Below, piece by piece: positions 8,749 to 16,796 of a DNA stretch of 32,000 nucleotides. A program made the translations under genes and the position numbers. The notes under the pieces are model-generated. The model made no database searches. It was not told where the DNA came from and worked only from the letters and a program-made list of their open reading frames with translations. Within the stretch, counting starts at the first letter, position 1; the number at the start of each line of letters is the position of its first letter. Where the stretch lies: positions 150,001 to 182,000 of the forward strand of contig JAWLBH010000001.1 in NCBI GenBank assembly GCA_041395025.1. Reading direction: 5' to 3'. The stretch comes from Chlamydiales bacterium. Its GTDB lineage: Bacteria; Chlamydiota; Chlamydiia; Chlamydiales; JAAKFR01.

Positions 8749-9354
8749 ATGAAAGATTCCTATTTATTTATTAAAAGATTTTTTTCTCATCCATCAACTA
8801 TCGGATCTGTTGTACCAAGTTCGAAAAGTTTAGCCTGGCATATGACTAAACAAGCACTTCAAAAAAAAAATAGGCCTTTGCGTTATCTTGAAGTTGGTGC
8901 TGGATCAGGTGCTCTAACTAAACACCTCATCCCAAAGCTAAGAAAAAATGATACGCTGGATCTTGTAGAAATTGATCCTTATTTCTGCTTACAATTAAAA
9001 AAAAAATACTCACACTTCCCCTATATAAAAATTCATCAAATCTCAATTCTTGAATTTGAAAAAAATAACTATGATGTTGTCATTTCTAGTCTTCCTATCA
9101 ATGCGTTTAAATCGAGTTGCGTTGATAAAATCCTCATCAAGTACAAAACATTAGTAAAACAAGGGGGAGTTATTTCTTATTTTGAATACATGGGTTTAGG
9201 AAAAATTAAAAAACTATATCTATTGGGAAAACTTCAAGTTGATTTCAACACAATTCTTCTATTAAAGAAAAATTTTGTTGAGAGTTATTGTACTGAAGTC
9301 AATAAAATTTGGTGGAACTTTCCTCCTGCTCGTGTTTTTCACTGTCAAATGTAG
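8749..9354 (+). CDS. Class I SAM-dependent methyltransferase (COG3963 phospholipid N-methyltransferase-like)
   Basis: The track starts at TTG 8746; an ATG follows at 8749. N-terminal FIKRFFSHPSTIGSVVPSSKSLA plus the SAM motif LEVGAGSGALT are typical of the small COG3963 family. Confidence 0.65.
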   Translation: MKDSYLFIKRFFSHPSTIGSVVPSSKSLAWHMTKQALQKKNRPLRYLEVGAGSGALTKHLIPKLRKNDTLDLVEIDPYFCLQLKKKYSHFPYIKIHQISILEFEKNNYDVVISSLPINAFKSSCVDKILIKYKTLVKQGGVISYFEYMGLGKIKKLYLLGKLQVDFNTILLLKKNFVESYCTEVNKIWWNFPPARVFHCQM

Positions 9355-9506: not shown

Positions 9507-10337
9507 CTAAATACCGTGGTCATTAACTACATTGAATTTATCCCTATCCGTAATCCGTAAAGCTTGTTGATCAGCTTCAAACATACGAGAAAGACGCTCC
9601 GATTCTTTTTTATTGATAAAATCTTTTAATTGACTATCAGCTAAAGTACAATCAAAGGTTTTAGAGAAAGAATCAAGATAACCATATCTTAAACCTAAAA
9701 ATTGAATTCCTTCTTTTTGACACGCAAGAGAGACTGATTGAAGATTTTTTTCTTTATCGTCAATAAAAAGAATCTTTTTTGGCCGGTAATTCAGCTGATT
9801 TAAAAAACGTATTAACGTCTCTCCTTTATCGTTCTTTAACCCCACGAAAATAATCCCTTCTAAATATTTAGCACCTCCCTCAATTTCACAATCAAAATTT
9901 TTTAAAGTATTTAAGGTGAAATCTATTCCAATTGAATGGATTTGATCAATCGTAGGATATGCCATTTCAACATAACGAGCTGTTAAACCTAAAACAGTAT
10001 TTCCTTGTTTTTGTAATTTGCGAATTACACCAGCTGTTGAAGGCTCTACAGCTTTAAATTTAGCCTCCATCAGAATATGATGCCAAAGAGGAATAAAACT
10101 ATCCATGATCTCAACTTTTGTCATCCCTGTGGATGCCATTCTTTTTTTTATTTCATAAGCTGCCCAGGTATCGGATCCAAGAGATTCTGTCGTTGTCATA
10201 AGCACATCATTAAGATCAGTAATAATTAATGTCTCTGGATTTGCAAATGCTAACAGATCACGAATATCATGACTCTCCAGAATTTCTGCTGACAAATAAC
10301 TAGAAAAGAAAAACAGGACAAAAATATATTTTTTCAT
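9507..10337 (-). CDS. Secreted HAD-fold protein (recalls the DUF2608 family of intracellular bacteria)
   Basis: Signal peptide MKKYIFVLFFFSSYLSA. HAD-like motifs ITDLNDVLMT (motif I with Asn in place of the second Asp), LGLTAR (motif II), and ILFIDDKEKN (motif IV). I prefer the ATG at 10337 over the GTG at 10340 (GAGGT just upstream). Confidence 0.6.
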   Translation of the reverse strand: MKKYIFVLFFFSSYLSAEILESHDIRDLLAFANPETLIITDLNDVLMTTTESLGSDTWAAYEIKKRMASTGMTKVEIMDSFIPLWHHILMEAKFKAVEPSTAGVIRKLQKQGNTVLGLTARYVEMAYPTIDQIHSIGIDFTLNTLKNFDCEIEGGAKYLEGIIFVGLKNDKGETLIRFLNQLNYRPKKILFIDDKEKNLQSVSLACQKEGIQFLGLRYGYLDSFSKTFDCTLADSQLKDFINKKESERLSRMFEADQQALRITDRDKFNVVNDHGI

Positions 10338-10660
10338 CACACCTCAAATTTTAAAGAGATTTTGTATGTCAAAATGACTTTTTTTTCTATACTTTTTTCT
10401 ATTTTTAAATTTAATTAATCTAAAAACCACTTAGATTGATATATAAATAAAATAACTTAATTTTTTTTATAAAAATTCAATGTATATTTTCATCTATTCT
10501 TAAAATTGACAAATAAATCAATACTATTGACAATCAACTTATATATAACTCTACTACGTTCTACTATGAATTTTTTTTTAAATTTAACCTTTCTTCTGAT
10601 TTTTCTTCCTGCAACTTTATTTAACCAAAGGGTTTATGCGAATGAAGAATCTAAAGAAGT

Positions 10661-10716
10661 ATTGATGACAAGTCAACTTCAGGTATTAATTGATGACAAG
10701 TCTACTTCAGGTATTA
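10661..10716 (+). repeat. 28-bp tandem direct duplication (2 copies, 1 mismatch)
   Basis: Copy 1 is 10661-10688 (attgatgacaagtcaacttcaggtatta). Copy 2 is 10689-10716 (attgatgacaagtctacttcaggtatta). The mismatch is 10675 a versus 10703 t. The unit length is not a multiple of 3. Confidence 0.95.
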
Positions 10717-11343
10717 CCAGACAATCCTAAAATTCGATCTCTTACGAATCATCTTCTAAGTGAGTGGCAAAATTACAAAACTTACGAAAATCCAAGCTTC
10801 AATACTCACCAATTAATTTGTGCGATCATTTACAGTGCACATCAACATGCGAATCAAGTACGAAAAGATAAAGAATCTACTCCCTATATTATTCATCCTT
10901 TAGAAGTTTGCAATAATCTTTGGGAAGTAGGCCAGGTGCGTAACGCAAATATTTTAATGTCAGCTATTCTTCATGATACTCTTGAAGATACTTTGGCGAC
11001 AGAAGATGAGATTCAAAAATATTTTGGACAACGTGTTCTGATCACGGTCAAAGAAGTAACTAATGCACCTAATCTCAGTAGTGATGAAAACAAACAATGC
11101 CAAATAGATCATGTACCTTGTATGTCACAAGATGCTCGTCTCGTTAAATTAGCAGATCGATTAGCCAATATTACCGATTTAAATACTAATCCTCCTTCTT
11201 CATGGACATCTCAAAAAATTGAGAATTATTTTACATGGGGAGAAAAATTATTGGCAGCATTACGAGGAACAAATCATCAACTTGAAACGATGTTAAAAAA
11301 AATGATAGAAGATCACAGTACCTCTAAAGAGGTAAGACAATGA
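10693..11343 (+). CDS. HD-domain hydrolase, SpoT/Mesh1-like small alarmone hydrolase family (signal-less form as currently encoded)
   Basis: YIIHPLEV...AILHDTLEDT (the HD motif of (p)ppGpp hydrolase domains) and VKLADRLANI. ATG at 10693 inside repeat copy 2. No strong Shine-Dalgarno sequence upstream. Confidence 0.65.
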   Translation: MTSLLQVLPDNPKIRSLTNHLLSEWQNYKTYENPSFNTHQLICAIIYSAHQHANQVRKDKESTPYIIHPLEVCNNLWEVGQVRNANILMSAILHDTLEDTLATEDEIQKYFGQRVLITVKEVTNAPNLSSDENKQCQIDHVPCMSQDARLVKLADRLANITDLNTNPPSSWTSQKIENYFTWGEKLLAALRGTNHQLETMLKKMIEDHSTSKEVRQ

Positions 11344-11444
11344 CCCCCGTTTTCTTCTAGTATAAACATTTCCAAATGCATACGAGAATCATCCTCTATC
11401 ACTTCAATAAAACTTCCCTTAAAAGCTTATCCCTTTATAAAGAG

Positions 11445-11527
11445 TGGGGGCAGCTGGATTCGAACCAGCGGATCCCGAAGGAGTCGGATTTACAGTCCGA
11501 TGCAATTGGCCACTATGCGATGCCCCC
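11445..11527 (-). tRNA. tRNA-Tyr (GUA), type II with long variable arm
   Basis: Folded by hand: acceptor GGGGGCA/TGCCCCC, anticodon stem-loop TCGGA-CTGTAAA-TCCGA, long variable arm, T arm GCTGG-TTCGAAT-CCAGC, discriminator A. CCA is not encoded. Confidence 0.9.
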
Positions 11528-15963: not shown

Positions 15964-16796
15964 AATACACTGACTAGTACGAATATAAAAACAGTCGATC
16001 CCACTGAAACAGTAAGAAAAAAGAAAATTTTTTCGGAATTTTTTTTTTCAATTTTTTTGTGGAATATATAAAAAACACATCCTGTTATACCAATTACCCA
16101 ATAATAAAATAGAGGAAAATGAGCAGTGATCCCTAATCCAACTAGCATAATAAGAGAAAAACCATGCAATAGACGGGCAATGCTCTGACTCTTTTTTAAA
16201 CCTAACCTAGACGGAATGCTGAATAAATGATGGTCGCAATCAAATTGATAATCCTGAATTGCATAAATAATATCACTCCCAACTATCAAACCAAAAGCGA
16301 CTCCACCTAAGAAAAATGAAGAGATCAATACATCTCCTGAAATTGCAACTGAAGACATCACAGGCACTAAAAAATGAATCACTCCTAAAACCACATGACA
16401 AAAAGAAGTGAAACGTTTTAAATAAGAATAAATAAATAGAAGAAAAGCAATCACAAATGCCATTAAGAAACAGTACTCATTGATTTGCAGACAAATCATA
16501 AAAAAAAGAATTAGAGATCCCCAAGCAATTTTCCAGGCTACCTTTTCTTTCATTCCTTTGCTTGGAAGAATGCGTTCTTTTGTGCGTGGATTTTTTGCAT
16601 CAATATGACGATCAATTAATTGATTAAAGGCCATGCCAGAAATTCTTGCACACATAAATGCAGGAAGAATCCATAACCAATACAAACTAAACTTCGCATT
16701 GAGTTCTTGCATGGGTAAGAGTACTCCTGCTAGAAGGAAAGGCAAACCAAAAAATGTTTGTTCAATTCGAGTTAAACTTTTCCATGCAGTAAACAT
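15948..16796 (-). CDS. UbiA-family aromatic polyprenyltransferase (4-hydroxybenzoate polyprenyltransferase-like / possible MqnP)
   Basis: 282-aa polytopic ORF. First Asp-rich motif NQLIDRHIDAKNPRT and second motif YAIQDYQFD. Its end overlaps the ubiX start by 16 nt. Confidence 0.8.
   Translation of the reverse strand: MFTAWKSLTRIEQTFFGLPFLLAGVLLPMQELNAKFSLYWLWILPAFMCARISGMAFNQLIDRHIDAKNPRTKERILPSKGMKEKVAWKIAWGSLILFFMICLQINEYCFLMAFVIAFLLFIYSYLKRFTSFCHVVLGVIHFLVPVMSSVAISGDVLISSFFLGGVAFGLIVGSDIIYAIQDYQFDCDHHLFSIPSRLGLKKSQSIARLLHGFSLIMLVGLGITAHFPLFYYWVIGITGCVFYIFHKKIEKKNSEKIFFFLTVSVGSTVFIFVLVSVLWAVM

What the first reader, a model, noticed from the sequence alone, without database searches (positions are those of the whole stretch)
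10566..11343. 28-bp tandem duplication frameshifts a SpoT/Mesh1-like HD hydrolase away from its predicted signal peptide
Seen in sequence: two adjacent 28-nt copies (10661-10688 and 10689-10716) differ at one base. Because 28 is not divisible by 3, the upstream frame (MNFFLNLTFLLIFLPATLFNQRVYA NEESKEVLMTSQLQVL) terminates at 10730, while the HD-domain frame continues from within copy 2. Removing one copy fuses the frames perfectly (..SQLQVLPDNPKIRSL..). Copy 2 also supplies an in-frame ATG (10693) for a signal-less protein. Inference: this is either a recent pseudogenisation, an on/off or localisation switch by gain and loss of a repeat unit, or an assembly artefact. A secreted or periplasmic (p)ppGpp-hydrolase-like enzyme would itself be unusual and could act on host-derived nucleotides. 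The n-region of the putative signal peptide lacks a basic residue, so the export prediction is only moderate.
Basis: seen in the sequence. Interest (0 to 1): 0.7.

Follow-up and report, generated by a model that had tools for sequence, protein, structure and literature searches.

The report
Duplication splits exported alarmone-hydrolase gene
A 28-base stretch has been copied in tandem near the start of a chlamydial gene for a Mesh1-type nucleotide hydrolase, cutting the enzyme off from its export signal; this is most likely an ordinary recent mutation, although the family of exported hydrolases it belongs to seems undescribed.

Summary
Two adjacent 28-nt copies (10661-10688 and 10689-10716) differ at one base. 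They shift the frame, so the ORF that starts at ATG 10566 with a signal-peptide-like leader stops at 10730. The hydrolase domain continues in the +1 frame from ATG 10693 to 11343. Deleting either copy gives one 249-aa ORF.

That ORF is colinear with its relatives. Of 86 full-length relatives, 75 have a hydrophobic N-terminal leader. The closest solved structures are human and fly MESH1, and all catalytic residues are present.

I found no other broken gene among the ORFs with Pfam matches in the window, and ORFs containing long homopolymers are intact. The two copies are not identical. An assembly artefact is therefore unlikely, but I could not exclude it.

No relative I examined has a repeat at this site, so nothing supports a programmed switch.

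Best reading: a real, fairly recent tandem duplication that abolishes export. The result is either a young pseudogene or a cytoplasmic, leaderless enzyme translated from ATG 10693. The lesion itself is ordinary.

The family is more interesting. It is a clade of signal-peptide-bearing Mesh1-like hydrolases, at least partly chlamydial. A 2011 survey found no RelA/SpoT-family enzymes in 15 chlamydial genomes.

The parts
10506..10534 (+). Promoter-like site TTGACA-17 nt-GACAAT, about 32 nt upstream of ATG 10566
   Evidence: Best consensus match in 10300-11500 (10 of 12 positions). No + strand promoter-like site lies between 10566 and 10693. This is a consensus match only.
10566..10640 (+). Ancestral start codon and signal-peptide-like leader (M1-A25: MNFFLNLTFLLIFLPATLFNQRVYA, predicted cleavage VYA|NE)
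   Evidence: Best 10-residue Kyte-Doolittle mean is 2.49, and V/A sit at positions -3/-1. AlphaFold pLDDT is 51-76 over the first three 10-residue blocks, against 95 or more from residue 31. The equivalent leaders are present in 75 of 86 relatives. There is no K/R in the n-region.
10571..10579 (+). T9 homopolymer inside the leader
   Evidence: Gain or loss of one T does not rescue the frame: T8 stops at codon 5 and T10 at codon 20.
10661..10688 (+). Copy 1 of the 28-nt unit, carrying the derived base A at 10675 (CAA, Gln in the upstream frame)
   Evidence: The closest orthologues aligned have Leu at this residue.
10689..10716 (+). Copy 2 of the 28-nt unit, carrying the ancestral-type base T at 10703 (CTA, Leu in the hydrolase frame). 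It contains TTG 10690 and ATG 10693.
10681..10683 (+). AGG at the end of copy 1, 9 nt upstream of ATG 10693. The duplication junction creates this weak Shine-Dalgarno-like context.
   Evidence: The anti-SD duplex is -3.8 kcal/mol here, against -1.4 for the same ATG in the one-copy context and +1.2 for ATG 10566. The median for window genes is -2.4, and 32% of all ATGs in the window reach -3.0 or lower. This is weak evidence.
10728..10730 (+). Premature stop (TAA) of the leader frame
10693..11343 (+). Hydrolase ORF as annotated in the source record (216 aa, MEZ5314722.1). It lacks the leader and the first 8 residues of the predicted mature protein.
   Evidence: P0001 is 100% identical and is named 'HD domain-containing protein [Chlamydiales bacterium]'.
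10822..11202 (+). Pfam HD_4 match (residues 77-203 of the repaired ORF). It includes H85, R90, H101, H127-D128 (10972-10977), E131-D132 (10984-10989), D188 and N192.
   Evidence: The alignment to human MESH1 has a constant offset of 67, so these residues fall on its metal-binding and catalytic residues.

Best explanation
The gene originally encoded a 249-aa, Sec-exported, Mesh1-type small alarmone hydrolase. It had a cleavable signal peptide, a two-helix N-terminal extension and an HD catalytic domain. A genuine and evolutionarily recent 28-bp tandem duplication then arose between the signal peptide and the first helix. Because 28 is not a multiple of 3, ribosomes starting at ATG 10566 now make a 54-aa leader peptide and stop at 10730. 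The catalytic domain can only be translated from ATG 10693 (or TTG 10690) inside copy 2. That product would have no signal peptide, would lack 8 residues of the mature N-terminus, and would stay in the cytoplasm. The allele is therefore export-null. I estimate about 60:40 that it is a young pseudogene rather than a source of a leaderless cytoplasmic enzyme. Shown: the repeat, the frames, the ancestral one-copy state, the family-wide leader, and the intact catalytic domain. Inferred: that the duplication is real and not an assembly error, that the leader directs export, and the fate of the downstream ORF.
For: The repeat and frames are confirmed. Orthologues at 55-64% identity are single continuous ORFs of 238-258 aa, colinear through the duplicated segment with no repeat. 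Of 86 full-length relatives, 75 have a hydrophobic N-terminal leader. A promoter-like site sits upstream of ATG 10566 and none sits upstream of 10693. The window protein deviates at 0 of 53 columns that are at least 90% conserved (family median 1), so decay has not started and the event is recent. Every other ORF with a Pfam match shows a complete or near-complete match to its main domain. These include ORFs containing A10, T10, A9 and T9 tracts, so the consensus is not prone to indel errors. The copies differ at one base, which an exact k-mer overlap artefact would not produce (inference). The structure model has mean pLDDT 93.3, and residues 30-64 form two confident helices, so the duplication lies in the folded mature part just after the leader.
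Against: No reads were available, so I cannot show that the duplication exists in the organism or is fixed in it. This genome is the only instance of the species found: there was one protein cluster with one member, and no exact 29-mer hit in the JGI metagenomes. The duplication has no microhomology at its boundaries, so the usual slippage origin is not visible. The intact domain, the retained ancestral Leu in copy 2 and the SD-like AGG at the junction are equally compatible with a functional leaderless enzyme. The leader lacks a basic n-region, and no trained predictor was run.
Confidence: 0.68

Rival explanations
1. Assembly or consensus artefact. The organism has one copy, and the second copy was introduced during assembly or polishing, for example by stacking two population variants (A or T at the mismatch) in tandem.
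For: The source is a metagenome-assembled genome seen only once. The mismatch could in principle be a population polymorphism. The duplication has blunt ends with no microhomology. No reads could be examined.
Against: No other ORF with a Pfam match shows a frameshift, although the window holds 39 long homopolymers (A/T runs of 8 or more, G/C runs of 6 or more). It is the only such repeat in 32 kb. Overlap artefacts based on k-mers are exact, and this repeat is not (inference). A 56-bp tract is spanned by single reads on every current platform (general knowledge).
Confidence: 0.13
2. Reversible on/off or localisation switch. Gain and loss of one 28-nt unit toggles between the exported enzyme (one copy) and a cytoplasmic or absent enzyme (two copies), as a contingency mechanism.
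For: Loss of one copy by recombination or slippage between 28-nt direct repeats restores a perfect ORF. The two-copy state offers ATG 10693 with a slightly better SD context than the one-copy state. Reversible tandem duplications that inactivate a gene are reported for Ralstonia solanacearum phcA, as cited in the preprint read.
Against: There are only two units, they are imperfect, and the unit is 28 nt, unlike known contingency loci with many short units. Three copies do not restore the frame. None of the relatives aligned or inspected at the DNA level has a repeat at this site, and the two relatives that appeared to lack a leader turned out to be a mis-called start and a changed start codon. 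A substitution between the copies suggests the two-copy state persisted without reverting (inference).
Confidence: 0.07
3. Native two-ORF arrangement. The downstream Met is the true start of a normal cytoplasmic hydrolase, and the upstream ORF is unrelated.
For: The depositors annotated the 216-aa ORF from ATG 10693. Generic Mesh1-like hydrolases of about 180 aa have no leader.
Against: The upstream ORF is colinear with the leader and the mature N-terminus of the orthologues. The repaired ORF matches them over up to 99% of its length. The promoter-like site precedes ATG 10566.
Confidence: 0.02

Closest known systems
MESH1 / HDDC3 (human 3NR1, 5VXA; Drosophila 3NQW), the metazoan SpoT-like small alarmone hydrolase
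   Same: Single HD domain. Sequence E-values are 1.6e-38 to 2.5e-35 over residues 72-240. The model superposes on 3NR1 with TM 0.93 (normalised to the target), rmsd 1.0 A and 40% identity. H, HD, ED, D and N are all conserved at the aligned positions.
   Different: MESH1 has no signal peptide; Atkinson 2011 describes it as probably cytoplasmic. The ancestral form here has a signal-peptide-like leader plus a conserved two-helix extension of about 45 residues (residues 30-64) that MESH1 lacks. In this window the leader is also disconnected by the frameshift.
Bacterial small alarmone hydrolases (P. aeruginosa SAH 6YVC/6Z3N, C. glutamicum RelH 7QOD, Mesh1-L group of Atkinson et al. 2011)
   Same: Same RSH hydrolase fold and single-domain architecture.
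   Different: The sequence similarity is much weaker (E about 1e-14; TM about 0.8). Those are cytoplasmic proteins of about 180-200 aa. Atkinson 2011 lists no RSH proteins in 15 chlamydial genomes.
Exported alarmone synthetases (SaEAS, VpEAS, RelV; mBio 2025, PMC12691689)
   Same: Members of the RSH superfamily that carry Sec signal peptides and act outside the cytoplasm. Removing the signal peptide changes where the enzyme acts.
   Different: Those are synthetase-domain proteins. This is a hydrolase-domain protein, and I found no exported hydrolase in the parts of that paper returned by my term searches. No activity or export has been tested here.
Reversible gene inactivation by tandem duplication (Ralstonia solanacearum phcA, Poussier et al. 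2003, as cited in bioRxiv 10.1101/2023.04.27.538605)
   Same: A tandem duplication within a coding region inactivates the gene, and precise loss of one copy can restore it.
   Different: Reversion was observed experimentally there. Here there is one genome, no population data, and an imperfect repeat.

Membership tests
RSH-superfamily small alarmone hydrolase, Mesh1/Mesh1-L type | HD_4 (PF13328) domain above the curated threshold | tested here: met
   52.3 bits against a cut-off of 27.2, residues 77-203.
RSH-superfamily small alarmone hydrolase, Mesh1/Mesh1-L type | Single-domain protein without synthetase, TGS or ACT domains | tested here: met
   Only HD_4 and HD match in Pfam. TIGR00691 spoT_relA matches only profile positions 2-124 of 687.
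RSH-superfamily small alarmone hydrolase, Mesh1/Mesh1-L type | Metal-binding and catalytic residues (His, His-Asp, Glu-Asp, Asp, Asn; Arg for the substrate) | tested here: met
   H85, R90, H101, H127-D128, E131-D132, D188 and N192 are invariant in the 86-sequence alignment and align to human MESH1 at a constant offset. The assignment of roles rests on my knowledge of the Mesh1 and RelSeq structures. The inactive E65A mutant is mentioned in PMC12691689.
RSH-superfamily small alarmone hydrolase, Mesh1/Mesh1-L type | Mesh1-like fold | tested here: met
   The model has pLDDT 93.3. Foldseek on the PDB puts 3NR1, 9CHY, 5VXA and 3NQW on top, with target-normalised TM 0.92-0.93 and rmsd 1.0-1.1 A.
RSH-superfamily small alarmone hydrolase, Mesh1/Mesh1-L type | Hydrolysis of (p)ppGpp, (p)ppApp or NADPH | not testable with these tools
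   This needs a recombinant enzyme assay.
Sec-type cleavable signal peptide | Positively charged n-region | tested here: not met
   No K/R precedes the hydrophobic core in the window sequence. 64 of the 75 relatives with a leader have at least one K/R in their first 8 residues, and 11 have none.
Sec-type cleavable signal peptide | Hydrophobic h-region followed by small residues at -3 and -1 | tested here: met
   FFLNLTFLLIFLPATLF has a best 10-residue Kyte-Doolittle mean of 2.49, followed by V-Y-A|N-E. This is a home-made heuristic, not a trained predictor.
Sec-type cleavable signal peptide | Conservation of the leader across the family | tested here: met
   75 of 86 full-length relatives have one, many with sites such as SFA|D or AFA|D.
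Sec-type cleavable signal peptide | Demonstrated export and cleavage | not testable with these tools
   This needs SignalP or DeepTMHMM and reporter fusions or N-terminal proteomics.
Repeat-mediated phase-variable (contingency) locus | Hypermutable tract of many short identical units | tested here: not met
   Two units of 28 nt with one mismatch.
Repeat-mediated phase-variable (contingency) locus | Repeat present or variable at the same site in related genomes | tested here: not met
   There is no repeat in the orthologues aligned as protein or DNA. The relatives that appeared leaderless have other explanations.
Repeat-mediated phase-variable (contingency) locus | Copy-number heterogeneity within a population | not testable with these tools
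   No reads are available, and the species was not found in any other assembly.
Frameshifted pseudogene | Reading frame interrupted relative to intact orthologues | tested here: met
Frameshifted pseudogene | Further decay (extra stops, loss of conserved residues) | tested here: not met
   0 of 53 conserved columns are changed, and there is no further stop in either part. This fits a very young pseudogene or a domain that is still functional.

The most novel reading that the evidence does not exclude
The gene belongs to an undescribed clade of Sec-exported Mesh1-type hydrolases, at least partly chlamydial, that act outside the cytoplasm on host- or competitor-derived nucleotides such as (p)ppGpp, (p)ppApp or NADPH. 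They would be the degradative counterpart of the recently described exported alarmone synthetases. In this reading, gain and loss of the 28-bp unit is a reversible switch that redirects the enzyme between the periplasm or exterior and the cytoplasm.
Probability: 0.07. Interest if true: 0.7.

Novelty: new member of a known kind. Interest (0 to 1): 0.33.

Why it matters
The lesion on its own matters little. It is a textbook frameshift by tandem duplication, and it mainly shows that the deposited annotation (216 aa from an internal Met) hides the gene's original architecture.

The gene family it exposes is of more interest. The 2011 RSH survey found no RelA/SpoT-family enzymes in 15 chlamydial genomes. 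This family is a Mesh1-like hydrolase with a conserved export signal. In one Parachlamydia contig it sits beside a Ppx/GppA-family protein that also carries a signal peptide. Exported alarmone synthetases were described in 2025, and an exported hydrolase would be the missing degradative side of extracellular alarmone metabolism. Alternatively it could be a way for an intracellular bacterium to process host nucleotides. This natural export-null allele offers a ready comparison for testing what export is for.

Tried and rejected
1. An exact look-up of the annotated protein's contig found nothing on record, so I could not read the rest of the 1.32-Mb genome.

2. The genome-contig scan with the family alignment was swamped by generic Mesh1-like genes from Proteobacteria, Chloroflexota and others. 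It did not return the source genome. Only one chlamydial locus (Simkania) came back, and it has a different architecture.

3. An exact 29-mer from the 3' flank of the repeat had 0 hits in the JGI metagenomes, so no second strain is available for counting copies.

4. Synteny: the contigs of the closest orthologues (P0002, P0004, P0007) share no neighbours with the window, so orthology rests on sequence alone.

5. Recurrent leader loss in relatives was rejected. P0057 is a mis-called start; its true ORF is 247 aa with a leader. P0008 has ATT where the start codon is expected, and no repeat.

6. Rescue by slippage at the T9 tract (10571-10579) was rejected, because both T8 and T10 run into stops.

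7. Programmed +1 ribosomal frameshifting in the overlap 10690-10730: I saw no recognised slippery motif in the codons listed, and the product would replace the conserved LPDNP segment. I did not pursue it.

8. Target-site duplication or a transposon footprint was rejected. The copies are directly adjacent with nothing between them, and 28 nt is far longer than usual target duplications (general knowledge).

9. Rfam found only the four tRNAs, with no regulatory RNA near the gene.

10. NCBIfam has no specific model for the family.

Full report
**The observation.** Tandem Repeats Finder reports one array at 10661-10716 with period 28, 2.0 copies, 96% matches and score 105, the highest score in the window. 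The two units differ only at unit position 15, which is A at 10675 and T at 10703. Neither flank extends the repeat, so the duplication is blunt and shows no microhomology. A scan of periods 15-60 for adjacent copies with at most one mismatch finds only this repeat in the 32 kb. None appeared in 20 shuffles that preserve local composition.

The ORF from ATG 10566 runs through copy 1 and, out of frame, through copy 2 to TAA 10728-10730, giving 54 aa. The hydrolase frame opens at TTG 10690/ATG 10693 inside copy 2 and runs to TGA 11341-11343. Deleting either copy gives one 249-aa ORF. Three copies do not restore the frame.

**What the gene is.** The repaired protein matches Pfam HD_4 at 52.3 bits against a cut-off of 27.2. 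Its best solved relatives by sequence are human MESH1 (3NR1, E 1.6e-38; 5VXA) and Drosophila Mesh1 (3NQW, E 2.5e-35). Bacterial small alarmone hydrolases and long Rel/SpoT enzymes are much further away, at about 1e-14 or weaker.

An AlphaFold model built on 86 family sequences has mean pLDDT 93.3. It superposes on the MESH1 structures with target-normalised TM 0.92-0.93 and rmsd 1.0-1.1 A. H85, R90, H101, H127-D128, E131-D132, D188 and N192 are invariant in the family. They align at a constant offset to the MESH1 chain. From my knowledge of the Mesh1 and RelSeq structures, these are the metal-binding and catalytic residues. The protein is therefore a Mesh1-type small alarmone hydrolase. Its activity is untested.

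**The source.** The 216-aa product from ATG 10693 is identical to MEZ5314722.1, 'MAG: HD domain-containing protein [Chlamydiales bacterium]', on a contig of 1,319,052 bp. The cluster has one member on one contig. The depositors therefore annotated the downstream ORF only.

**The ancestral state.** Relatives at 36-64% identity are mostly 235-260 aa and cover up to 99% of the repaired ORF. In the alignment, the closest ones (P0002-P0009) read ..LPKAYFMETLFETLPDNPKIRSL.. where the repaired window protein reads ..ESKEVLMTS(Q/L)LQVLPDNPKIRSL.., without gaps. The DNA alignment shows a single copy in all three orthologues examined.

Of 86 relatives with at least 80 residues before the TPYIxH motif, 75 have a hydrophobic N-terminal segment (10-residue Kyte-Doolittle mean of at least 2.0). 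Most have Lys or Arg near the start and sites such as SFA|D. The generic Mesh1-like proteins of about 180 aa at the bottom of the hit list have no such leader. The window's leader, MNFFLNLTFLLIFLPATLFNQRVYA|NE, has a strong hydrophobic core and a V-x-A site but no basic residue. Eleven of the 75 relatives with a leader share that feature.

The model gives low confidence for the leader (means of 51, 61 and 76 for the first three 10-residue blocks). It predicts two confident helices at 30-40 and 45-64, which MESH1 lacks. The duplicated segment encodes residues 33-41, which fall in the first of these helices. A promoter-like TTGACA-17-GACAAT lies at 10506-10534, just upstream of ATG 10566, and none precedes ATG 10693 on the + strand. 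The one-copy ORF with its leader is therefore the original gene, and the duplication is derived.

**Which copy changed.** All the closest orthologues aligned have Leu at the residue affected by the mismatch. Copy 2 (CTA, Leu in the hydrolase frame) therefore keeps the ancestral base, and copy 1 (CAA) carries the substitution. This is one event with even odds by chance, so it is only a hint that the hydrolase frame is still under selection.

**Real mutation or artefact.** I could not see reads.

- The indirect evidence favours a real mutation. Every other ORF with a Pfam match shows a complete or near-complete match to its main domain. Examples are Oxidored_FMN 2-338/342, SurE 1-189/189, Ribul_P_3_epim 2-198/198, biotin carboxylase, EF-P and FabH.
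- The window also holds 39 long homopolymers (A/T runs of 8 or more, G/C runs of 6 or more). These include A10 and T10 tracts inside intact ORFs. The consensus is therefore not prone to indel errors.
- An overlap artefact would give identical copies, and these differ.
- I put the artefact at about 0.13.

**Pseudogene or leaderless enzyme.**

- The catalytic domain shows no decay. The window protein deviates at 0 of 53 columns that are at least 90% conserved, against a family median of 1.
- The product from ATG 10693 would lack only 8 residues of the predicted mature protein.
- The junction places an AGG 9 nt upstream of that ATG. The anti-SD duplex is -3.8 kcal/mol, against -1.4 in the one-copy context and +1.2 at the native start. 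However, 32% of all ATGs in the window reach -3.0 or lower, so this is weak.
- These facts fit either a very young pseudogene or a cytoplasmic enzyme that is still made. I lean 60:40 to the pseudogene.

**A programmed switch?**

- Precise loss of one unit would restore the gene, and reversible tandem duplications are reported for Ralstonia phcA (cited in the preprint read).
- The tract, however, has only two imperfect units of 28 nt.
- No relative has a repeat there.
- The two relatives that looked leaderless have other explanations. P0057 from a Parachlamydia MAG is a mis-called start; its real ORF is 247 aa with the leader MTFNLFGFIISLMLAVGSVSYA|NEN. P0008 has ATT where the start codon is expected.
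- Slippage at the T9 tract cannot rescue the frame.
- I give the switch about 0.07.

**Comparison with what is known.** The event is an ordinary frameshift by tandem duplication. The protein is a member of the Mesh1/Mesh1-L hydrolases by every sequence and fold criterion tested. It differs in having a conserved export leader and the two-helix extension.

Atkinson et al. 2011 list no RSH proteins in 15 chlamydial genomes and describe Mesh1 as probably cytoplasmic. A 2025 paper describes Sec-exported alarmone synthetases, including periplasmic RelV. My term searches of that paper returned no mention of an exported hydrolase. Five literature searches for exported or chlamydial small alarmone hydrolases found no description of such a family. 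This is absence of evidence within a library limited to open-access papers.

Only a few family members carry taxonomic labels or recognisably chlamydial neighbours: Chlamydiales, Parachlamydia, and a neighbour from a Chlamydia trachomatis-named Pfam family. 'Chlamydial clade' is therefore provisional.

**Verdict.** The lesion is most likely a real, recent, unprogrammed mutation that abolishes export of a Mesh1-type hydrolase. Interest in the lesion is low. The exported hydrolase family it points to deserves a separate look.

Noticed in passing
Family level (P0002-P0100); repaired window ORF residues 1-64: Nearly all close relatives of this Mesh1-like hydrolase (75 of 86) carry a signal-peptide-like leader. 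The aligned relatives also share a two-helix N-terminal extension that MESH1 lacks. I found no paper describing exported small alarmone hydrolases, and a 2011 survey lists no RSH proteins in 15 chlamydial genomes.
   Followed up: partly
L088 (Parachlamydia sp. JAJFUZ010000057.1) 1417-2160 and 2561-3562: The family member here is annotated 28 residues too short; the true ORF has a leader. Its downstream neighbour is a Ppx-GppA family protein that also starts with a signal-peptide-like sequence (MQRIYLLTLSFLLFVHSLSA|AVE). This suggests an exported pair of enzymes acting on nucleotide or polyphosphate substrates.
   Followed up: partly
L015 (Simkania sp. NZ_OZ244056.1) 3929-5413; L086 6764-8272: In Simkania the HD_4 domain is fused to a C-terminal Exo_endo_phos-like domain (Pfam E 2.7e-4, below the cut-off) and has no leader. 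In another contig the leader-bearing hydrolase sits next to a 502-aa Exo_endo_phos protein with a hydrophobic N-terminus. This may be a functional link.
   Followed up: partly
window 9507-10340 (-): The divergently transcribed neighbour is a DUF2608 protein (Pfam E 1.8e-45) with its own signal-peptide-like start (MMKKYIFVLFFFSSYLSA|EIL). It has no PDB relative by sequence and no NCBIfam model.
   Followed up: partly
window 10571-10579 and 38 other sites: There are many long homopolymers (A/T runs of 8 or more, G/C runs of 6 or more), including T9 directly after the start codon of this gene and A10/T10 tracts inside intact ORFs (8861-8870, 8997-9006, 16039-16048). All the ORFs involved are intact.
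   Followed up: partly
L087 (ENA scaffold_681428) 365-394: The orthologue P0008 has ATT at the position of the expected start codon, preceded by an in-frame TGA. The leader may therefore start at a non-canonical codon or be truncated to MLSGLALLTSGIAS. It comes from a short metagenome scaffold.
   Followed up: no
window 10660-10717: The duplication has no microhomology at either boundary, so the usual origin by slippage between short direct repeats is not visible. The junction forms ATTAAT, and an imperfect inverted repeat (10685-10696 / 10806-10817) spans it.
   Followed up: no
window 23034-23596: The roughly 1-kb stretch without large ORFs (22739-23723) holds small membrane-protein ORFs, including a 71-aa TM2-domain protein (Pfam E 3.3e-15). 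I saw no pseudogene remnants.
   Followed up: partly
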